Source: Candidatus Lokiarchaeum ossiferum
GTDB taxonomy: Archaea; Asgardarchaeota; Lokiarchaeia; Sigyniarchaeales; Promethearchaeaceae
Direction of reading: 5' to 3'
Assembly (NCBI GenBank): GCA_025839675.1
Contig: CP104013.1
Span: 5,370,001-5,402,000 of the forward strand
DNA length: 32,000 bases
Below, one piece after another: positions 2,720 through 20,089 of the stretch. The translations under genes and the position numbers were made by a program. The stretch's first letter is position 1. Each line of letters starts with the position of its first letter. The notes under the pieces are model-generated. The model did not search any database. It saw only the letters and a list, made by a program, of their open reading frames with translations, and was not told the origin of the DNA.

Positions 2720-4207
2720 TTATATTCTTCCATTCGTTAGAAATTCTTTTGTTCGATCAGATTTAAACCAATATTTTCCATTGTAGCACGCTAAACATAG
2801 ATCTTTCTTTTGTAATTCAACAGCATCTATCAATCCTTCAATGCTTAGGTATTTTACACTATCTGCTCCAATCTCATTTGCAATTTGAATGCAAGCTTCT
2901 TCATGATTCTTCGCTGTAAGTTCCTTACGACAATAAATTAATTCTTCTCGAGAAGGGAAATCTACTCCATAGAAACATGGACTTCTAACTGGAGGACATG
3001 AAGATCGCACATGAATTTTAAGTGCTCCCGCTTGTCTTAGTAATTTAACAATTCGTCCCATTGTGGTTCCACGCACAATACTATCATCTATTAGTACAAT
3101 TTCTTTACCTTTTACAATGGATTCTACTGGATTTAATTTCATTCTTACCAAATTCATACGTTCTGCTTGACTTGGTGCAATAAAACTACGGAAAACATAT
3201 CGATTTTTCATTAATCCTTCTTCATAACGAATTCCACTCTCAGCGGCATATCCAAGTGCAGAAGATCTACCGGAATCTGGGACGGGTACGACAATTATAT
3301 CTTCTCTAGAATTCAGAAATTCTTCATCTGCTTTTGCAAGATTTCTTCCCAATCTTTCTCGAGTTTTATGGACACTTTTTCCATCAATAATGCTATCTCC
3401 ACGAGAAAAATACACGTATTCAAATACACAATGATTTTTTTCTGCAGGAAGCAATTTTTCTCTGTGGAAAAAATGATCTTGATGAACATGAAGGATTTCA
3501 CCTGCTTGAATATCTCCAATTAGCTTCCCTCCAAGGGAAATTATTGCACATGATTCTGATGCAATAATATAACATTCGGTGTTAAGAATATTAGCAGTGC
3601 CATAACATAGAGGTTTATTTCCGCTTCGATATGCGTAGACATCTCCTTCGTTTGTAAGTAAGACTAGTGAAAATGCCCCATCAAGCAATTTTGATGTGAA
3701 TTCTAGGTTTTCAACCCAATCTTTTGTTACTAATGTATTAGCGGCTATCAGATTTGCTATAACCTCTGTATCTCCATTAGTTAGAAAAATAATCCCCTTC
3801 GATTTTAGTTGTTCCTTTAAAAGATGATAATTTGTAATGTTTCCATTAAATGCTATTGCAAAGGGAGGTGTTTGGGGGGTTTCAAATGGAAAGGGTTGAG
3901 CATTGTTTATATCTTTTCCTCCAGCTGTTCCGTATCGAACATGTCCAATTCCCACATTGCCCCATAATTTTGATAATTTTTCCAATGGAAGAGCCTCAAA
4001 CAAGAGTCCGTGTTCGCGTATTGTATTTATACTTTTGTTTGCATCAAAAACACTTATTCCTGCTGCTTCTTGTCCTCGATGTTGGACTGCCATTAATCCT
4101 TGGAAAATAGCTTGAGCTACATGAGTTGAAGGATTTTTTGATATTATCGCAACTATTCCACATTCTTCACGAGGTTTTCCATTAGATTTTTTCTGAATTG
4201 ATTCCAT
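2720..4207 (-). CDS. purF: amidophosphoribosyltransferase (glutamine-PRPP amidotransferase), [4Fe-4S] type with N-terminal propeptide
   Basis: Ntn-type CGIVAI after a 15-residue leader (MESIQKKSNGKPREE|CGIV). PRPP loop is VLIDDSIVRGTT. Fe-S Cys context is SSCPPVRSPCFYGVD. I chose the internal ATG at 4207, which has GGAGA 8 nt upstream. The track ORF's 42 extra codons would overlap purQ. Confidence 0.9.
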   Translation of the reverse strand: MESIQKKSNGKPREECGIVAIISKNPSTHVAQAIFQGLMAVQHRGQEAAGISVFDANKSINTIREHGLLFEALPLEKLSKLWGNVGIGHVRYGTAGGKDINNAQPFPFETPQTPPFAIAFNGNITNYHLLKEQLKSKGIIFLTNGDTEVIANLIAANTLVTKDWVENLEFTSKLLDGAFSLVLLTNEGDVYAYRSGNKPLCYGTANILNTECYIIASESCAIISLGGKLIGDIQAGEILHVHQDHFFHREKLLPAEKNHCVFEYVYFSRGDSIIDGKSVHKTRERLGRNLAKADEEFLNSREDIIVVPVPDSGRSSALGYAAESGIRYEEGLMKNRYVFRSFIAPSQAERMNLVRMKLNPVESIVKGKEIVLIDDSIVRGTTMGRIVKLLRQAGALKIHVRSSCPPVRSPCFYGVDFPSREELIYCRKELTAKNHEEACIQIANEIGADSVKYLSIEGLIDAVELQKKDLCLACYNGKYWFKSDRTKEFLTNGRI

Positions 4208-9128: not shown

Positions 9129-10085
9129 TTATATTTTTAAATTTTTTTTTATCCGATCCATTATATTTCCTTCTATTACTGGCTCGAATTTCTGTCCTGT
9201 AATCATTTCATATGATTTGACATATGTATTTACAAATTTTACTTTAATTTCATCTGGAATTTCAGGGATTGGACCTTCTCCCATATAATTCTTTTCAGTT
9301 ATCAACCACTGTCGGAAGAATTCTTTATCGAGTATTTCCGGTTTTTCACCTTTTGCAAATCGATCCTCATACGTGTCCTTAATCCAAAATCGGGAAGCAT
9401 CCGGAGTGAAAATTTCATCAATCACAACCAATTTTCCTTCCGGAGTAATTCCATACTCGAATTTGCAATCTACTAATATTAAATTATTCTCTGCACAGTG
9501 CTTTGTTGCGAAGTCAAAGATTTTCTTTGTTTTTTCTTCAACATCCTTATAAATATCTTCAGATACCAATCCTTGGGCAATAATTTCTTCCCGTGAAATA
9601 GGTAGATCATGTTCTCCCACTGCAGCTTTAGTTGATGGTGTAAGAACTGGTTCTGGTAATTTTTGATAATTTTTCAAACCTTCTGGAAAAGTTATTCCTG
9701 AGACTGATTCTCCTTTTTGATATGCTCTCCAAGCACTTCCTGTAATATAGGCTCTAACGATCATTTCAATTGGAAGTGATTTACATTCATGTACTCTAAC
9801 CACATTTGGATCGGGGACATCGATAATATGATTTGGGATGATATTCTTTGTTTTTTCAAACCAAAAAGTTGAGAGTTGATTCAATAATTGACCTTTGAAT
9901 GGGATCGTTGTAATTACTCTGTCAAATGCACTGAGACGATCTGTAGCGACAATTGTTCGTATTCCTTCTTCTTCATTAACAAAGTTTTCTCTCACTTTTC
10001 CCTTATATCTTTTCCCAAGACCAGAGAGATCAACATCTTCAACTGTATTATGTAGTTGTTCTCGAATAATATTCTCTTCTATCAT
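9129..10085 (-). CDS. purC: phosphoribosylaminoimidazole-succinocarboxamide (SAICAR) synthase, long form
   Basis: 318 aa with YKGKVRE, ATDRLSAFD, LILVDCKFEYG and IDEIFTPDASRFW, all characteristic of SAICAR synthetase. Confidence 0.9.
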   Translation of the reverse strand: MIEENIIREQLHNTVEDVDLSGLGKRYKGKVRENFVNEEEGIRTIVATDRLSAFDRVITTIPFKGQLLNQLSTFWFEKTKNIIPNHIIDVPDPNVVRVHECKSLPIEMIVRAYITGSAWRAYQKGESVSGITFPEGLKNYQKLPEPVLTPSTKAAVGEHDLPISREEIIAQGLVSEDIYKDVEEKTKKIFDFATKHCAENNLILVDCKFEYGITPEGKLVVIDEIFTPDASRFWIKDTYEDRFAKGEKPEILDKEFFRQWLITEKNYMGEGPIPEIPDEIKVKFVNTYVKSYEMITGQKFEPVIEGNIMDRIKKNLKI

Positions 10086-10540: not shown

Positions 10541-11377
10541 TCATCCTGTAGAAATGAAATTATTATTTTGCAAAAAAGTATATATTATTTTATTATATTC
10601 TTCATGTCTTTGAGATATTCCTAAATGTCCTGTCATACTCACCATATGGTATTCAGAGTCTCTGATATTCTTTCTAAGTTGTTTTGAAAAATATATTGGT
10701 GCTTCTTCGTCTAATTCTGCACACATTATTAGAGTTGGACAAGAAATTTCTGATGAATCTATTTGGAATTCATTGAGATCCCAAATTTCATCTTTAATTC
10801 TGTTTTTTATCAAATCTCTATCTCGTTTGGATAAAATTACTTCATCTGGTTGTATGATTTTCTCAATAAGTGGGGATGTTTGGTCAACTATTTCGTCAAA
10901 GGATTGATTTATAATTTCATTGAAATTCACCCGAGAATATTTAGGTAATAAATTCCAGAAAATATTTTTAATTGTGCTATCGATAAACAAATTGCCTCCA
11001 TTTAATAAAATTAAAAATCTAACACGATTTCTATTGATTATGGTAAATTGCTGGGCAGTTGCAGTTCCAAACAGACCATAACCTAATATGGAAATTGATC
11101 CCTCAATAGATAAATATGTTAATAAATTGCTAAGATCGTTTAAGGTTGAGTTAATCATATTTTCTTGGAGTTCATATGGATTTTTATCGCTATTTCCATG
11201 TCCTATAACATCAAATAAAATCAATTTGAAATACTGTGCAAGAAACCTTTTTTGCTTTGAAAAAATAGTCTGAGAAGAGCCATATTCATGAATTAAGATT
11301 AAAACGGGGAGATTTGAATCTTTATTGAATATCTCAAAATATATTTCATAATCATTTTGATTCCGAAAGTATGGCAT
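10541..11377 (-). CDS. alpha/beta-hydrolase-fold protein with degenerate catalytic motifs
   Basis: Collinear with the paralog at 14901..15734. It has HE (H30-E31) instead of the oxyanion HG, and GYGLFG instead of GHSMGG, so the nucleophile position is G101. The C-terminal His (MTGHLG) is retained. Confidence 0.65.
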   Translation of the reverse strand: MPYFRNQNDYEIYFEIFNKDSNLPVLILIHEYGSSQTIFSKQKRFLAQYFKLILFDVIGHGNSDKNPYELQENMINSTLNDLSNLLTYLSIEGSISILGYGLFGTATAQQFTIINRNRVRFLILLNGGNLFIDSTIKNIFWNLLPKYSRVNFNEIINQSFDEIVDQTSPLIEKIIQPDEVILSKRDRDLIKNRIKDEIWDLNEFQIDSSEISCPTLIMCAELDEEAPIYFSKQLRKNIRDSEYHMVSMTGHLGISQRHEEYNKIIYTFLQNNNFISTG

Positions 11378-16802: not shown

Positions 16803-17120
16803 CTAAAAAAATTTCCTGATATTATCTATTATTTGAAAGATTTCCGGATTTCTGATTGAATACATATTTTTTTTTCCTTCTTGGCGATATTGCAAAATTT
16901 TTCCATCTACTAAACTTTTCAAATGTTTTGAAATCGCAGCTTGAGTATAAGAAAAATGGGGTAATAAGTCACAGACACATAATTCTCCCTCGTGGAGGAG
17001 TAGAATCAATTCTATTCGAATAGGGGAAGATAGTGTTTTGCAAAATTCCGCTAATACCTTGATTTGTGGTCGAGGTAAAATATTCATCTCTAATTTGTGA
17101 GGATTTTTACATGCTGTCAT
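16803..17120 (-). CDS. arsR: ArsR/SmtB-family metal(loid)-responsive transcriptional repressor
   Basis: 105 aa with a winged-HTH layout and HEGELCVCDL, the ELCVCDL metalloid-binding motif of classical ArsR. It is the last gene of the minus-strand operon. Confidence 0.85.
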   Translation of the reverse strand: MTACKNPHKLEMNILPRPQIKVLAEFCKTLSSPIRIELILLLHEGELCVCDLLPHFSYTQAAISKHLKSLVDGKILQYRQEGKKNMYSIRNPEIFQIIDNIRKFF

Positions 17121-17135
17121 TGTTTATCATCTATT

Positions 17136-17558
17136 TTATAAACTTAAGGGATTTAACTCTTTTCCAGCACATTCTGCAATATGAAGTGCCAATTTTTCAC
17201 TTAGGGAATGATTTTTCCATTTTAAATCATGTAATGGCCCATTTTTTACTTGCTGCCATTCTGTCTCAGTGTAAAATTCTGATAATTCAATTTCCTTAAT
17301 TGGTTCCCGTCCTAAATTATTAACTGATCGGGCAGCGCATTTTTTCTGACAACCGTCAACAGTAATGCATGGGAATTTTTTCACAAAATTTTGTTCCTTC
17401 TCATCCCCAGCTAAAAATAAAGGAACACAGATTGTCGTTGTACTCCCCGGAATATACTCTGAAAGTACCTTTATTGTGGCAATACGCGAAACTGTGCCGC
17501 CTGGACATTCTTCTCCACTACAAGATAGAATTCCAATATATTTTGGTTGAATAATCAT
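17136..17558 (-). CDS. DGC-domain putative metal-binding protein (paralog 1)
   Basis: ILSCSG...TICVPL...CITVDGCQKKCA. It shares the CSG...(D/N)GCxKKC pattern with the two upstream genes. GGAGGA lies 6 nt upstream, and an ATGA overlap joins it to the upstream gene. Confidence 0.6.
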   Translation of the reverse strand: MIIQPKYIGILSCSGEECPGGTVSRIATIKVLSEYIPGSTTTICVPLFLAGDEKEQNFVKKFPCITVDGCQKKCAARSVNNLGREPIKEIELSEFYTETEWQQVKNGPLHDLKWKNHSLSEKLALHIAECAGKELNPLSL

Positions 17559-17995
17559 CGTGATTCCTCCATAAAATTGTCTATATCTGTACCGATATCC
17601 CTAGCTGTCCGTTTTGCTAATTCTAAAGCTTGCTCTCCAGGATCTAATATGCTTTTTCCTAGTTTAAGATCCCTATTTTTTACCAGAAATTTTGGCATCA
17701 AATACTTTTTTGCTACCAATCCTCCATTCTTTTCAACATTCAAGGTGGCACATTTTTTTGGACATCCATCAATCGTAAAAATAGGATGTTCTTGGATTGT
17801 GATTTTAGATTCATCATCAGCAACAACTAGTCGTGCTAAACATAACAATCGAGTATCATGTGGCTTTAAGTTTTGAGTTACTTCATAAGCAGTCCAGCGA
17901 GTAACGGTTCCCAATGCCTTTCCAATTCCGCTGCAAGGCAAAATTAAGACTTTTTTATCCTTTGATTCTTCTAATTTTTCATTATTTAATTTCAT
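17555..17995 (-). CDS. DGC-domain putative metal-binding protein (paralog 2)
   Basis: LILPCSG...LLCLARL...IFTIDGCPKKCA. ATG at 17995 has AAGGAGA 9 nt upstream (the track start 18001 is TTG). The stop is TGA at 17555-17557. Confidence 0.6.
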   Translation of the reverse strand: MKLNNEKLEESKDKKVLILPCSGIGKALGTVTRWTAYEVTQNLKPHDTRLLCLARLVVADDESKITIQEHPIFTIDGCPKKCATLNVEKNGGLVAKKYLMPKFLVKNRDLKLGKSILDPGEQALELAKRTARDIGTDIDNFMEESR

Positions 17996-18905
17996 CTTCA
18001 ATTTTCTCCTTCATGTGTGCAAAATAGTCAAGGGGGGTCATTAAATCTTCTAATTCTGTATCGAATGTGGATGGTTCTATCACACAAATCCATCCATTAG
18101 TATATGGTTCTCTATTAATTATATCTGGTTCTTCAATCAAAGCCTTATTTACTTGAACCACATTTCCAGTAAAAGGAGAGAGTAGATCAATTACTGTTTT
18201 TGTTGATTCGATTGAAGCTAAAGATTCCAATTGCTCCGCTTTTGAGCCGATTTCAGGTAAATCAATTATCACAATATCACTCATATTTTGTTGTAAATAA
18301 TCCGAGATTCCAACTACTGCCTTTCCATCTTGCATATAGACCCAAGCATCATTCCAAGTGAAATATAGCCCTGATTTATTATTGGGGACTTTGAACTCAA
18401 ATTTTGCTTGAAGATATTTTTGCCATTGCTCGTAATTGGGTAAGAATTGGAATTTCTCATCAAAAATATCTTTTTTTGGTGATACTTGCGGATACAATTT
18501 CAAATAAATTTCTTTTGCGGTTTCAGTGGCAATATTTAGTTCATCACCTGTTAAACTTGTTTTACCTTTTGGGGAGAATCCTTTTCCCTTTATTGATTGA
18601 GGTATATTGAAAACAAAATCTGGTCTCAATTCTTTAGTTTCACATAATTTTGAAACACATTTTTTTCCGCATCCATTTAGAACACATATCGATTTGTTTT
18701 TTAAAAGATCTTGGACATTTTCTTCTTCTACAGAGATTTGAGCAAATGATGGTTCAATTACTATATTTTTTGAATGTTCTCTACCCATTTGCACTAATTC
18801 CAGTGCAATTGATGTGCTTAATTGACCTGTTAATCTCTCTATTCCGCTACATGGTATGATTAGTATGTTTTCTTGATTATGGGTTATATTTAATTCGTTT
18901 TGCAT
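17982..18905 (-). CDS. fusion protein: N-terminal DGC-like domain plus C-terminal glycine-cleavage-H-like lipoyl-carrier domain
   Basis: N-terminal motifs are LIIPCSG...CVLNGCGKKCVSKLC. The C-terminal part is collinear with GcvH (VVGISDYLQQNMSDIVIIDLPEIGSKAEQLESLASIESTKTVIDLLSPFTGNVVQVN...EPYTNGWICVIE). The lipoyl-Lys position is retained (K236, 18198-18200). Confidence 0.75.
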   Translation of the reverse strand: MQNELNITHNQENILIIPCSGIERLTGQLSTSIALELVQMGREHSKNIVIEPSFAQISVEEENVQDLLKNKSICVLNGCGKKCVSKLCETKELRPDFVFNIPQSIKGKGFSPKGKTSLTGDELNIATETAKEIYLKLYPQVSPKKDIFDEKFQFLPNYEQWQKYLQAKFEFKVPNNKSGLYFTWNDAWVYMQDGKAVVGISDYLQQNMSDIVIIDLPEIGSKAEQLESLASIESTKTVIDLLSPFTGNVVQVNKALIEEPDIINREPYTNGWICVIEPSTFDTELEDLMTPLDYFAHMKEKIEDEIK

Positions 18906-18919
18906 ATATATTCACCAAA

Positions 18920-19240
18920 TTATTTCGAGAGTGTTTTTTTTTTAATTTCTGCTTTAATGGATTTAATTTGTTTCAAAACTTCCTTTTTCGGTTGAAAAAT
19001 CATAGCTCCTTCGATAGGACACATTTTTAAGCATGCCTGGCAGAAAACCACACAATTTTTTGGTTTAACTACCACAATCTTTCCATCCTTTTTCTCATAT
19101 ACTCCATGAGCGCAAAAAGTTACACAATCTCCGCAATTATTGCATTTTTCATAATCAATTATGGGAAACCAATCTATTTGACCTCTTGGTACTCCCATGA
19201 ACTTGTGAGGGTTTTTCATATTACGACTTGCTTCACTCAT
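18920..19240 (-). CDS. 2x[4Fe-4S] ferredoxin-like protein
   Basis: CNNCGDCVTFC and CVVFCQACLKMCP cluster motifs. ATG at 19240 overlaps the upstream gene's TGA by 8 nt (the track start 19243 is TTG). Confidence 0.8.
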   Translation of the reverse strand: MSEASRNMKNPHKFMGVPRGQIDWFPIIDYEKCNNCGDCVTFCAHGVYEKKDGKIVVVKPKNCVVFCQACLKMCPIEGAMIFQPKKEVLKQIKSIKAEIKKKTLSK

Positions 19241-19622
19241 CAATTATACCCCATTCTTCCAATTGTTTTTCTATTTCATCGAAAGCTTCATCAGTAGTCA
19301 TGTTACGAACATCTAGAGGTTTGGCCATTTTGCTAAAATCAAGATTATGTTTTTTAAAAGCAGGTGACATCAGTTTCATCTGCATATTTGGTGAACAACC
19401 TGCTATAAAATAGTGCATATCTGGATCTATTGAATTAGTTTTCAATAAATCATCCAAAAAGCGATCTCCATCAATTTCACATAGTTGTGGATGTACTATT
19501 GCCCATTCTACAGGAAGGGCTAATCGAACTTGATTTATTAAATCCCATACGTTCATGGTTGCGAACCCCGGACAATCGCCGGTACAAACGCAGAGAATGA
19601 ATCCTACTCGTGGTTTTGCCAT
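19233..19622 (-). CDS. stand-alone Cys-rich domain protein resembling the internal VCxCG...ACSP...N(I/V)R domain of heterodisulfide reductase HdrA
   Basis: GFILCVCTGDCPG...PQLCEIDG...YFIAGCSPNMQMKLMSPAFKKHNLDF...LDVRN is collinear with my recollection of the HdrA segment IGVFxCHCGxNI...CS...VVVAxCxPRxHExxF...GLN...NIR. ATG is at 19622 (a GTG at 19631 is also possible). First gene of the operon. Confidence 0.5.
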   Translation of the reverse strand: MAKPRVGFILCVCTGDCPGFATMNVWDLINQVRLALPVEWAIVHPQLCEIDGDRFLDDLLKTNSIDPDMHYFIAGCSPNMQMKLMSPAFKKHNLDFSKMAKPLDVRNMTTDEAFDEIEKQLEEWGIIDE

Positions 19623-19653
19623 TGTTTTCACTTCTACTTAGTAAAAAAATTGG

Positions 19654-19815: not shown

Positions 19816-20031
19816 ATGGGTAATATTTCCTATGAAAGTACGATCATTTGTCCCCAATGTGGAAATTCTGAAACCCATATTCTAACTGAAAACGCATGAA
19901 ATTTGGCGATCTCCTGTGACAATTGTAAAACAATCATCCGTGGAAAACCAAATAAACATGGGTGAACTTGAGTTTTTTGTAGTTATGGTAGTTCTCCATG
20001 AGTAGGGATTCAGAAACAAACAAATAAGTAA
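19816..20031 (+). CDS. small Cys/Sec-rich metal-binding protein with four predicted selenocysteine (UGA) codons; GDCCVxC-type
   Basis: ATG 19816 to TAA 20029-20031 gives 71 residues: MGNISYESTIICPQCGNSETHILTENA-U-NLAISCDNCKTIIRGKPNKHG-U-T-U-VFCSYGSSP-U-VGIQKQTNK. In-frame TGAs are at 19897, 19963, 19969 and 19999, and there is no TAA/TAG. The TGAs fall where the remembered family consensus has Cys. A SECIS-like hairpin follows. The ORF track misses this gene. Confidence 0.6.
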
Positions 20032-20044
20032 TGCATCGCAAAAA

Positions 20045-20089
20045 ATGCAATGAAAACTACTGGTAAACCTTTGGCAGTAGTTGGAGCAT
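20045..20089 (+). promoter_or_regulatory. SECIS-like k-turn hairpin in the 3' UTR of the UGA-containing ORF
   Basis: AUGC (20045-48) pairs with GCAU (20086-89). A 3-nt bulge AAU follows. Tandem sheared pairs are G52.A85 and A53.G84 (5' AUGA / 3' GA). An 8-bp perfect helix joins AACUACUG (20055-62) to CAGUAGUU (20075-82). The 12-nt apical loop GUAAACCUUUGG contains AAA. Confidence 0.5.

What the first reader, a model, noticed from the sequence alone, without database searches (positions are those of the whole stretch)
20045..20089. Kink-turn (AUGA...GA) SECIS-like hairpin 14 nt downstream of the UGA-rich ORF
This 45-nt element has several nested parts. A 4-bp outer stem pairs AUGC with GCAU. 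A 3-nt bulge (AAU) follows. Tandem sheared G.A/A.G pairs form from 5'-GA (20052-53) and 3'-GA (20084-85), then a further A.G pair. An uninterrupted 8-bp helix joins AACUACUG to CAGUAGUU. The 12-nt apical loop carries AAA. This matches the consensus k-turn geometry and the AUGA / AAR-loop / GA layout of eukaryotic SECIS elements. It does not match the GAA_A-bulge SECIS of methanogens. As I recall, Lokiarchaeota were reported to have Sec-encoding features intermediate between archaea and eukaryotes. One 3'-UTR element serving four UGAs would be a compact test case. It could also simply be an L7Ae-binding k-turn.
Basis: partly seen in the sequence, partly recalled or inferred. Interest (0 to 1): 0.75.

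Follow-up and report, generated by a model that had tools for sequence, protein, structure and literature searches.

The report
Lokiarchaeal SECIS hairpin behind four-selenocysteine gene
The hairpin is a genuine selenocysteine-insertion signal of the known Lokiarchaeota (eukaryote-like) type, but the tiny four-selenocysteine metal-binding gene it serves is not in the published lists of Asgard selenoproteins.

Summary

- **Organism:** the window is from Candidatus Lokiarchaeum ossiferum B-35. Three of the five window proteins looked up are exact matches to its NCBI entries.
- **Gene:** the ORF at 19816-20031 has four in-frame UGAs. With Sec written as Cys it matches NCBIfam NF041374, "GDCCVxC domain-containing (seleno)protein", above the cutoff. 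All four UGAs align with Cys in bacterial homologues.
- **Conservation:** 20 other loci, including Promethearchaeum syntrophicum MK-D1, carry the same four-UGA gene; with the window that makes 17 distinct 3'UTRs. Each has AUGA, a 9-nt arm, an A-containing loop, a 9-nt arm and GA, 41-75 nt after the last UGA.
- **Covariation:** the 8-bp helix is 98.5% paired, and all 8 pairs show compensatory changes.
- **Specificity:** covariance models built without the window sequence rank this site first in the 32 kb.
- **Rfam:** the SECIS models do not detect it. The original authors reported the same for Loki SECIS elements.
- **Fit to the known class:** the layout matches the published lokiSECIS / Asgard eukaryote-like SECIS class, so it is a new member of a known kind.
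- **What is less expected:** the gene family is absent from the seven families listed for Asgard selenoproteomes. Related loci also hold a second, unannotated multi-Sec family.

The parts
19816..20031 (+). Selenoprotein gene of 71 codons plus a TAA stop. It encodes a small zinc-ribbon-like GDCCVxC-domain protein: MGNISYESTIICPQCGNSETHILTENAUNLAISCDNCKTIIRGKPNKHGUTUVFCSYGSSPUVGIQKQTNK.
   Evidence: Translation is. With U written as C it matches NCBIfam NF041374 at E=4e-16, 59 bits against a cutoff of 40, over the full-length model. Orthologues with the same four UGAs occur in 20 other loci.
19897..19899 (+). UGA 1 (codon 28), read as Sec.
   Evidence: Aligns with Cys of '(D)AC' in Bacteroidetes and Flavobacteriales Cys homologues. 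It is UGA in all eight archaeal orthologues aligned.
19963..19965 (+). UGA 2 (codon 50), read as Sec.
   Evidence: Aligns with the first Cys of GCCCVFC in the Cys homologues.
19969..19971 (+). UGA 3 (codon 52), read as Sec. It lies only one codon after UGA 2.
   Evidence: Aligns with the third Cys of GCCCVFC.
19999..20001 (+). UGA 4 (codon 62), read as Sec. There are 48 nt between it and the AUGA core.
   Evidence: Aligns with Cys of 'P/D/K-C-P/L' in the Cys homologues. The gap between the fourth UGA and AUGA is 41-48 nt in 15 of 17 distinct orthologues.
20045..20089 (+). Complete SECIS element of the Loki / Asgard eukaryote-like type I.
20045..20048 (+). Lower (C) stem, 5' strand AUGC. It pairs with GCAU at 20086-20089.
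   Evidence: The innermost pair is kept in all 16 orthologues that have a 3' flank (GC:9, CG:6, UG:1). The whole 4-bp stem is 75% paired.
20049..20051 (+). 3-nt bulge AAU, occupying the k-turn loop positions. Its last two bases are the AU of AUGA.
   Evidence: Read from the sequence. AUGA is invariant in 17 of 17.
20050..20053 (+). AUGA SECIS core. G20052 and A20053 face A20085 and G20084 as a tandem sheared G.A/A.G.
   Evidence: The AUGA and GA columns are invariant in alignment A2. This matches the lokiSECIS description.
20054..20054 (+). A opposite G20083, the non-Watson-Crick ninth stem position next to the core.
   Evidence: Across orthologues this position is A.G, U.G, U.U, C.U, A.A or A-U, so it is not constrained to pair.
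20055..20062 (+). Upper helix, 5' arm AACUACUG.
   Evidence: 98.5% of cells are paired and 8 of 8 pairs show changes on both sides. RNAalifold predicts the same helix independently.
20063..20074 (+). 12-nt apical loop GUAAACCUUUGG. It has the GUAAA start and a terminal G.
   Evidence: Two A columns are invariant, at loop positions 3-4. G[U/G]AAA loop starts are described for Asgard SECIS elements. A terminal loop G is described as ultraconserved.
20075..20082 (+). Upper helix, 3' arm CAGUAGUU.
20083..20085 (+). G (opposite A20054) followed by the invariant 3' GA of the core.
20086..20089 (+). Lower (C) stem, 3' strand GCAU.
20032..20049 (+). Competing upstream hairpin UGCAU-CGCAAAAA-AUGCA (5 bp in the fold). 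It sequesters the 5' strand of the lower stem in the MFE fold and is not conserved.
   Evidence: It appears in the MFE of the 103-nt context. An exact upstream complement of the lower-stem strand is present in only 2 of the 15 other distinct orthologue 3'UTRs examined.
16803..19631 (-). Genomic context only: a divergently transcribed cluster. It holds a 132-aa Cys-rich protein with no family match, a 4Fe-4S ferredoxin, three DGC-domain proteins (one fused to GCV_H) and an ArsR/SmtB metalloregulator. A functional link to the selenoprotein gene is not shown.
   Evidence: Pfam and NCBIfam scans and gene calls on the same contig.

Best explanation
The 45-nt hairpin at 20045-20089 is the SECIS element of the mRNA for a 71-residue GDCCVxC-family selenoprotein of Lokiarchaeum ossiferum.

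It sits in the 3'UTR. Its core is kink-turn-like: a lower stem, a 3-nt bulge, and tandem G.A/A.G pairs formed by AUGA and GA. Above the core are an 8-bp helix and an apical loop that begins GUAAA.

By analogy with the archaeal and eukaryotic pathway, the element recruits the Sec-specific elongation factor (aSelB/EFsec) carrying Sec-tRNASec to ribosomes on this mRNA. Recruitment could be direct or through a kink-turn-binding adaptor that has not been identified. All four in-frame UGAs (codons 28, 50, 52 and 62) would then be decoded as selenocysteine rather than as stops.

**Shown here:**
- the structure, and its conservation and covariation;
- its exclusive association with UGA-containing ORFs;
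- the Sec/Cys correspondence of the four UGAs;
- that UGA is otherwise a normal stop codon in this genome.

**Inferred:** factor recruitment, the identity of the binding protein, and actual Sec insertion.
For: - **Real selenoprotein gene.** The ORF hits NF041374 above its cutoff. All four UGAs align to Cys in bacterial Cys forms, and protein conservation continues past every UGA in 20 other loci, giving 17 distinct 3'UTRs with the window.
- **UGA is not reassigned.** 7 of 30 ordinary ORFs in the window end in TGA.
- **Conserved architecture.** Every orthologue has the AUGA / 9 nt / loop / 9 nt / GA layout 41-75 nt after the fourth UGA, with different stem sequences.
- **Covariation.** The upper helix is 98.5% paired and 8 of 8 pairs change on both sides. 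The covariation score is 0.739 against 0.217 in shuffles (0 of 500 reach it), and register slides drop pairing to about 50%. RNAalifold finds the same helix.
- **Independent models.** A covariance model built from nine orthologue elements, without the window, puts 20048-20086(+) first in the 32 kb at 17.6 bits, with the next hit at 10.2. A broader model gives 20.4 bits, again first.
- **Association with UGA-containing ORFs.** In related loci, 23 of the 32 model hits with E<1e-3 were traced automatically to the end of an ORF from one of two selenoprotein families. Most of the rest are accounted for by hand.
- **Match to the published class.** Features match the lokiSECIS / Asgard eSECIS-like class: AUGA before a 9-position stem, an 11-nt loop with an A-rich start, a terminal loop G, then GA. 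G[U/G]AAA loop variants are also described.
- **Organism.** Lokiarchaeum ossiferum, a member of a mostly Sec-utilizing clade.
Against: - No Rfam SECIS family matches, even at E<=10 on 86 nt.
- The E-values of my own models in the window are only 0.07 and 0.03, and the second model's next hits are not far behind at 16.8 and 15.6 bits.
- The loop is 12 nt, not the canonical 11, and its penultimate base is G, not A.
- The thermodynamic MFE in a longer context replaces the 4-bp lower stem with a competing hairpin.
- The Sec machinery (tRNASec, SelB, PSTK, SepSecS, SelD) was not examined in this genome. No tRNA lies in the window.
- No other L. ossiferum SECIS was retrieved for comparison.
- No experimental evidence of Sec insertion or protein binding exists for any Loki SECIS in the papers read.
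Confidence: 0.9

Rival explanations
1. It is a generic kink-turn that binds L7Ae, for example as part of an sRNA or as an mRNA stability or processing element, with no role in UGA recoding.
For: The sequence fits the k-turn consensus of C-stem, 3-nt bulge and tandem G.A. No SBP2 homologue has been found in Lokiarchaeota, so L7Ae is a plausible binder.
Against: In all 17 distinct orthologue 3'UTRs the element sits at a near-constant distance after the last UGA. In related loci the same motif follows two different families of UGA-containing ORFs. There is no C box (RUGAUGA) or D box (CUGA), and no Rfam C/D family hits this strand. L7Ae binding would in any case be compatible with SECIS function.
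Confidence: 0.04
2. It is a transcription terminator or 3'-end hairpin shared by the convergent genes, the selenoprotein gene on the + strand and cofE on the - strand.
For: It lies in a 95-nt gap between convergent genes, and T-rich runs follow it on both strands. A bacterial-type terminator-like site is called at 20052-20034 on the - strand.
Against: That call covers the non-conserved competing hairpin, not the 8-bp helix. From established knowledge, archaeal termination depends on oligo-T rather than hairpins. The invariant AUGA/GA and loop adenines have no terminator rationale. In MK-D1 the element is conserved although the downstream gene is on the same strand.
Confidence: 0.03
3. The ORF is a decayed pseudogene or a chance frame, or UGA is read as another amino acid, and the hairpin is coincidental.
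For: Gene callers made no call here. Neither the full-length nor the truncated product is in the protein collection in the spellings tried.
Against: The four UGAs are at identical positions in 17 distinct orthologues, with conserved protein sequence after each one, and they align to Cys. The family-model hit is above its cutoff. UGA terminates 7 of 30 neighbouring genes. The chance expectation for the hairpin at this spot is about 2e-4.
Confidence: 0.01

Closest known systems
lokiSECIS / Asgard eukaryote-like SECIS, type I (Mariotti et al. 2016, PMC4989117; Huang et al. 2024, PMC11227280)
   Same: Shared features: location in the 3'UTR close to the stop codon; AUGA directly before a 9-position stem; an apical loop with adenines near its 5' end and a terminal G; GA directly after the stem; one element serving several UGAs; not detected by standard SECIS models.
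   Different: The loop is 12 nt rather than 11 and starts GUAAA rather than AAAAA. That variant was reported for Thor- and Sif-archaeial genes. The penultimate loop base is G, not A. The gene family it serves is not among those for which the class was described.
Eukaryotic SECIS (Rfam SECIS_1 and related families)
   Same: The AUGA ... AA(A) ... GA layout, a kink-turn-like core with tandem G.A pairs, and 3'UTR location.
   Different: The helix between the core and the loop is shorter, at 8-9 positions. No Rfam SECIS model matches. No SBP2 is known in Lokiarchaeota.
Euryarchaeal (Methanococcales / Methanopyrus) SECIS with a GAA_A bulge
   Same: It is an archaeal 3'UTR element acting at a distance on UGA codons.
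   Different: There is no GAA_A internal bulge and no run of G-C pairs. The helix is uninterrupted and A/U-rich.
Kink-turn motifs bound by L7Ae-family proteins (box C/D and H/ACA sRNAs, rRNA)
   Same: C-stem, 3-nt bulge, tandem sheared G.A/A.G, then a non-canonical A.G pair.
   Different: There are no C/D boxes or guide regions. The position is fixed relative to UGA-containing ORFs. The conserved apical-loop adenines are not a k-turn feature.
Bacterial selenoprotein family 'Hypothetical protein GOS_B' = NCBIfam NF041374, GDCCVxC domain-containing (seleno)protein
   Same: The encoded protein matches the family model over its full length and shares the CxxC...C...CxxC...G-x-C-x-C-V-F-C-S-Y-G...P-C layout.
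   Different: The 2026 review table lists one Sec for this family. The Lokiarchaeal form has four (five in L029), and the motif is G-U-x-U-V-F-C rather than GDCCVxC. Recoding is by a 3'UTR SECIS rather than by bacterial in-frame hairpins.
Multi-Sec genes served by a single SECIS: Loki HdrA-VhuD pairs and eukaryotic selenoprotein P (own knowledge)
   Same: Several UGAs are decoded with one 3'UTR element.
   Different: Here there are four Sec in only 71 residues, two of them separated by a single codon, and a single short type-I-like element.

Membership tests
lokiSECIS / Asgard eSECIS-like element | Lies in the 3'UTR, close to the stop codon of a gene with in-frame UGA | tested here: met
   It starts 14 nt after the TAA of the four-UGA ORF. 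In the orthologues whose ORF ends in TAA or TAG, the AUGA lies 7-42 nt after that stop.
lokiSECIS / Asgard eSECIS-like element | AUGA immediately 5' of the main stem and GA (or AA) immediately 3' of it | tested here: met
   AUGA is at 20050-53 and GA at 20084-85. Both are invariant in 17 of 17 orthologue elements.
lokiSECIS / Asgard eSECIS-like element | Main stem of 9 positions | tested here: met
   There are 8 Watson-Crick pairs plus the A20054.G20083 position. The same 9+9 geometry is seen in 17 of 17. The ninth position is not constrained to pair.
lokiSECIS / Asgard eSECIS-like element | 11-nt apical loop whose first nucleotides are mostly adenines, ending in G preceded by A | tested here: inconclusive
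   The loop is 12 nt, GUAAACCUUUGG. It has an AAA run and a terminal G, but starts GU and ends GG. GUAAA is a published Asgard variant. Ten of the 17 orthologue elements have the canonical 11-nt ...UAG loop.
lokiSECIS / Asgard eSECIS-like element | Structure conserved with compensatory changes in orthologous genes | tested here: met
   98.5% paired, 8 of 8 pairs with double-sided changes, and 0 of 500 shuffles reach the observed score. RNAalifold agrees.
lokiSECIS / Asgard eSECIS-like element | Detected by a covariance model trained on other members | tested here: met
   It is the top hit in the window with R1 (17.6 bits, E 0.07) and with R2 (20.4 bits, E 0.03), both built without the window sequence. 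The published lokiSECISearch model itself was not available.
lokiSECIS / Asgard eSECIS-like element | Directs Sec insertion at UGA | not testable with these tools
   This needs labelling, mass spectrometry or a reporter assay.
Eukaryotic SECIS (Rfam SECIS families) | Scores with the family covariance model | tested here: not met
   No SECIS family appears at the gathering threshold or at E<=10.
Eukaryotic SECIS (Rfam SECIS families) | Bound by SBP2 | not testable with these tools
   No SBP2 was found in Lokiarchaeota by Mariotti et al..
Euryarchaeal SECIS | GAA_A internal bulge flanked by G-C-rich stems | tested here: not met
   The helix 20055-62/20075-82 is uninterrupted with only 3 G-C pairs, and there is no GAA_A.
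Kink-turn | C-stem, 3-nt bulge, tandem sheared G.A/A.G, NC-stem | tested here: met
   The sequence pattern is present. The innermost C-stem pair is kept in 16 of 16 with covariation. The actual kinked geometry and protein binding are not testable here.
Box C/D sRNA | C box RUGAUGA, D box CUGA and guide sequences | tested here: not met
   The 5' side reads GCAAUGA and the 3' side reads GGAG. No C/D family hits this strand at this site.
NCBIfam NF041374 GDCCVxC domain-containing (seleno)protein (the encoded protein) | Score above the curated cutoff over the full model | tested here: met
   59 bits against a cutoff of 40, over model positions 1-58 of 58, with Sec written as Cys. The MK-D1 and metagenome orthologues score 49.9 and 57 bits.

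The most novel reading that the evidence does not exclude
Lokiarchaeia may carry a selenium-based metal or metalloid handling module that is missing from published Asgard selenoproteomes. It would consist of the four-Sec (sometimes five-Sec) GDCCVxC protein and, in related genomes, a second unannotated family with adjacent Sec residues (U-G-U-U / U-U), sitting in ars-type operons with ACR3 and ArsM. The SECIS variant seen in the two cultured Asgard strains has a 12-nt loop, G-N-AAA-CC...GG, and a 4-bp lower stem. It could be a subtype adapted to efficient decoding of closely spaced UGAs such as U-x-U. That would make these short genes the most compact natural test system for processive Sec insertion in a cultivable relative of eukaryotes.
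Probability: 0.3. Interest if true: 0.6.

Novelty: new member of a known kind. Interest (0 to 1): 0.45.

Why it matters
- **Confirmation of the class in a cultured organism.** The eukaryote-like Loki SECIS class is present, with textbook covariation, in Lokiarchaeum ossiferum and Promethearchaeum syntrophicum MK-D1, the only two named, cultured organisms among the genomes that carry the gene here. What binds an Asgard SECIS could therefore be tested biochemically.
- **An addition to the Asgard selenoproteome.** The gene family is absent from the seven families catalogued for Asgard archaea, even though MK-D1 was in that data set. It packs four Sec into 71 residues, two of them one codon apart. 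That makes it a compact natural substrate for studying multi-UGA decoding by one short SECIS.
- **Annotation.** Gene callers skip these genes entirely or truncate them at the first UGA or translate UGA as Trp.

Tried and rejected
- **Rfam.** Searches at the gathering threshold over the whole window and at E<=10 on 501 nt and 86 nt found no SECIS family, only chance snoRNA and sRNA matches.
- **Protein word-index search.** The search with Sec written as Cys found nothing.
- **Exhaustive representative search.** It could not be used.
- **Plain MAFFT alignment of the elements.** It misplaced gaps because the loops differ in length (A1). I therefore used fixed-offset extraction, with loops trimmed to 5+5 nt for pair counting (A2). 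This edits loop length only, not the paired columns.
- **Synteny.** tblastn of 14 window proteins against all orthologue loci gave no hits. Gene neighbourhood is therefore not conserved, and the ArsR/DGC context of the window cannot be generalised.
- **Exact look-up of the product.** Look-ups with X for Sec, and of the 27-residue truncation, found nothing. The letter U is not accepted.
- **A selenoprotein on the convergent strand.** I considered that the - strand gene cofE, which stops at a TGA at 20127-29, might be the selenoprotein using this region. The frame after its TGA is not conserved-looking and soon hits further stops. I rejected this.
- **MvhD label.** I first recalled the 132-aa neighbour as MvhD-like. 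It has no Pfam or NCBIfam hit, so I dropped that label.
- **Second strict pattern match.** The match at 10791-10758(-) lies inside a hydrolase CDS without UGA, and its AUGA is Watson-Crick paired. I rejected it as a SECIS.
- **Runner-up hits of the second model.** The R2 hits at 3429-3477(+) and 9836-9892(+) are antisense to coding genes and have U-run/A-run stems. I regard them as false positives. This was not tested further.

Full report
**1. The observation**

The sequence at 20045-20089 (+) reads AUGC-AAU-GA-A-AACUACUG-GUAAACCUUUGG-CAGUAGUU-G-GA-GCAU.
- a 4-bp outer stem (20045-48 with 20086-89);
- a 3-nt bulge (20049-51);
- G20052.A20085 and A20053.G20084;
- A20054.G20083;
- an uninterrupted 8-bp helix (20055-62 with 20075-82);
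- a 12-nt loop containing AAA.

The ORF upstream runs from ATG 19816 to TAA 20029-31 and has four in-frame UGAs at codons 28, 50, 52 and 62. The hairpin starts 14 nt after the stop.

RNAfold of the 45 nt reproduces both stems, with -13.3 kcal/mol and z = -3.1. In a 103-nt context the MFE prefers a competing hairpin, 20032-36/20045-49, over the short outer stem.

A strict version of the pattern (ATGA, a 9-nt arm with 8 paired positions, a 10-14 nt loop, then GA) is expected 0.12 times per 64 kb of composition-matched sequence. A match within 100 nt of the only multi-UGA ORF is therefore very unlikely by chance.

**2. The gene is real and the UGAs stand for Sec**

With U written as C, the 71-residue product matches NCBIfam NF041374, "GDCCVxC domain-containing (seleno)protein". 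The match covers the whole model at E = 4e-16, with 59 bits against a cutoff of 40.

I scanned the species-representative genomes and the JGI metagenomes with a degenerate pattern for G-[U/C]-x-[U/C]-V-F-C-[S/T]-Y-G. This returned 20 further loci, giving 17 distinct 3'UTRs with the window, all with the same four UGAs and conserved protein sequence after each of them. They include Promethearchaeum syntrophicum MK-D1 and several Promethearchaeota MAGs.

Cys-only homologues from Bacteroidetes and Flavobacteriales came up in the same scans. In the alignment, all four UGAs fall on Cys columns.

UGA is an ordinary stop in this genome: 7 of 30 long ORFs in the window end in TGA.

The organism is Candidatus Lokiarchaeum ossiferum B-35. 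The window's GyrA, GyrB and PurL are identical to its NCBI proteins.

**3. The hairpin is conserved, covaries, and is specific**

In all 17 distinct orthologue 3'UTRs there is an AUGA, a 9-nt arm, a loop of 11-13 nt (19 in one), a complementary 9-nt arm and GA. The motif lies 41-75 nt after the fourth UGA, and 41-48 nt in 15 of them.

The stem sequences differ between lineages:
- AACUACUG/CAGUAGUU in the window;
- AUCUUUCA/UGAAAGAU;
- GUCGAUAA/UUAUCGGU;
- U-runs with A-runs in the MK-D1 clade.

AUGA, GA and two loop adenines are invariant.

Pair counting on a gap-free alignment (loops trimmed to 5+5 nt) gives these results:
- 98.5% pairing for the 8-bp helix;
- double-sided changes at 8 of 8 pairs;
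- a covariation score of 0.739 against 0.217 in shuffles, with 0 of 500 shuffles reaching it;
- about 50% pairing when the register is slid by 1-3 columns.

The position next to the core (A20054.G20083) is not constrained to pair. This is as expected for the non-canonical quartet of a SECIS core.

The lower stem is less regular at 75% paired. Its innermost pair is kept in 16 of 16 sequences, switching between G-C and C-G. RNAalifold independently predicts the same 8-bp helix.

Covariance model R1 was built from nine orthologue elements without the window sequence. It ranks 20048-20086(+) first in the 32 kb on both strands with filters off, at 17.6 bits and E 0.07; the next hit scores 10.2 bits. 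A broader model, R2, gives 20.4 bits and E 0.03, again first. Its runners-up are two hits with U/A-run stems antisense to coding genes. So this kind of hairpin is not found after ordinary genes here.

**4. Association with UGA-containing ORFs beyond this gene**

In the related loci, R1 found additional very strong hits (50-62 bits) just upstream of the GDCCVxC gene. Each follows, within a few nucleotides of the stop, another small ORF with two or three adjacent in-frame UGAs. Of the 32 hits with E<1e-3, 23 were traced automatically to such an ORF or to the GDCCVxC gene. Most of the rest could be placed by hand. The motif therefore marks several selenoprotein families in these genomes. That is the behaviour of a SECIS rather than of a gene-specific structure.

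**5. Comparison with what is known**

Mariotti et al. 2016 described the lokiSECIS as follows:
- a 3'UTR location;
- AUGA before a 9-bp stem;
- an 11-nt loop with adenines at its start and an ultraconserved terminal G;
- GA after the stem;
- one element shared by multi-Sec HdrA-VhuD pairs.

They also reported that archaeal, bacterial and eukaryotic SECIS covariance models found nothing. That matches my negative Rfam searches.

Huang et al. 2024 extended the class to more than 400 Asgard genomes and described loop variants starting G[U/G]AAA. The window's loop starts GUAAA.

The element therefore meets the defining features of the class. The small deviations are a 12-nt loop and GG rather than AG at the loop end. 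It does not meet the Rfam eukaryotic SECIS models and lacks the GAA_A bulge of methanogen elements.

The kink-turn reading is correct at the sequence level and is part of the published description. No SBP2 has been found in Lokiarchaeota. The protein that reads the core is unknown and could be L7Ae itself or aSelB.

**6. What is less ordinary**

The published Asgard selenoproteome lists seven families: SelD, FrhA/VhuU, HdrA, FrhD/VhuD, Prx-like, AhpF-N and DsbA-like. MK-D1 (GCA_008000775) was in that data set.

The original lokiSECISearch screen found only HdrA, VhuD, VhuU and PrxL. A 2026 review lists NF041374 only as the one-Sec family "Hypothetical protein GOS_B" from the GOS metagenome.

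The four-Sec Lokiarchaeal form therefore appears not to have been reported in the papers I could search. It is also absent from the protein collection, as a full-length product or as a 27-residue truncation, in the spellings tried.

Its neighbourhood hints at metal or metalloid handling:
- In the window, the divergent cluster ends with an ArsR/SmtB regulator and three DGC-domain proteins.
- In L030, ACR3-like and arsenite-methyltransferase genes lie directly upstream.

The neighbourhood is not conserved across loci, however.

**7. Mechanism and confidence**

- **Shown:** the structure, its conservation and covariation, its specificity, the Sec/Cys correspondence, and normal use of UGA as a stop elsewhere.
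- **Inferred from the established archaeal and eukaryotic pathway:** the 3'UTR element recruits aSelB/EFsec with Sec-tRNASec, possibly through a k-turn-binding protein, so that all four UGAs are read as Sec.

I put this at about 0.9. The rivals are a plain L7Ae k-turn, a terminator hairpin, and a pseudogene or codon reassignment. Together they hold the remainder.

**8. Verdict**

The hairpin itself is a new member of a known class, so I score interest as moderate (0.45). The added value lies in two things: an apparently uncatalogued, very Sec-dense selenoprotein family present in both cultured Asgard archaea, and the second unannotated multi-Sec family seen in related loci.

Noticed in passing
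L025 647-994 and 1322-1621; L028 1901-2248 and 2575-2874; L030 5267-5623; also L018, L022, L026, L033, L034: A second family of small ORFs (99-135 aa) has 2-3 adjacent in-frame UGAs, in motifs such as ...SDA-U-G-U-U-AK......HAD-U-U-AD... and ...GC-U-U-EK..., followed by ...DYG.FKT...FAHYF. Each has its own strong AUGA/GA SECIS 2-7 nt after the stop. There is no Pfam or NCBIfam match with Sec written as Cys. Database relatives are only truncated at the first UGA or translated with UGA as Trp, and no Cys form was seen among the 10 hits. This may be an undescribed multi-Sec selenoprotein family. It is not present in the window.
   Followed up: partly
L030 3247-5143: Directly upstream of the multi-Sec genes lie an ACR3-like arsenite efflux gene (TIGR00832, 277.5 bits, just under the 282.8 cutoff) and an arsenite methyltransferase (NF008823, 348.5 bits). 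The ACR3-like frame itself runs through an in-frame UGA five codons before its TAA. The arrangement suggests an ars-type operon that includes selenoproteins.
   Followed up: partly
L018 and L026, end of the GDCCVxC gene: In these two orthologues the only in-frame stop near the end of the gene is the UGA inside the SECIS core AUGA (...ATT GAA TGA). The termination codon and the SECIS core therefore overlap.
   Followed up: no
L029 1346-1558: This orthologue has a fifth in-frame UGA, replacing the first Cys of the second CxxC motif (...RRL-U-KSC...).
   Followed up: no
3' of the SECIS in L010, L017, L018, L019, L021, L022, L026, L028, L032-L034, and in L011, L015, L029: Most orthologues have a second small hairpin immediately after the SECIS, for example UAGGA-cggcc-UCCUA. 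In the MK-D1 clade it is GUUC-gcaa-GAAC, and in L029 (less completely in MK-D1) it is enclosed by a longer closing stem, AUCCCCAA/UUGGGGAU, that makes a three-way junction in the MFE fold. The window has no obvious counterpart. The role is unknown.
   Followed up: no
window 10758-10793 (-): This is the only other strict AUGA / 9 nt / loop / 9 nt / GA match in the window. It lies inside the 278-aa hydrolase CDS, which has no in-frame UGA. Its AUGA is Watson-Crick paired (GAUGAA/UUCAUC), and it scores under 10 bits with both models. I judge it an ordinary hairpin.
   Followed up: yes
L014 1010-1046 (-): A weak model hit (16.8 bits) lies 19 nt after a 99-aa ORF with one in-frame UGA in ...YRG-U-CGTEV.... 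It may be another selenoprotein with a divergent SECIS.
   Followed up: no
window 16803-19631 (-): A divergent cluster next to the selenoprotein gene contains a 132-aa Cys-rich protein with no family match, a 4Fe-4S ferredoxin, three DGC-domain proteins (one fused to a glycine-cleavage H domain) and an ArsR/SmtB regulator. Its function is unknown. It is not syntenic with the orthologue loci.
   Followed up: partly
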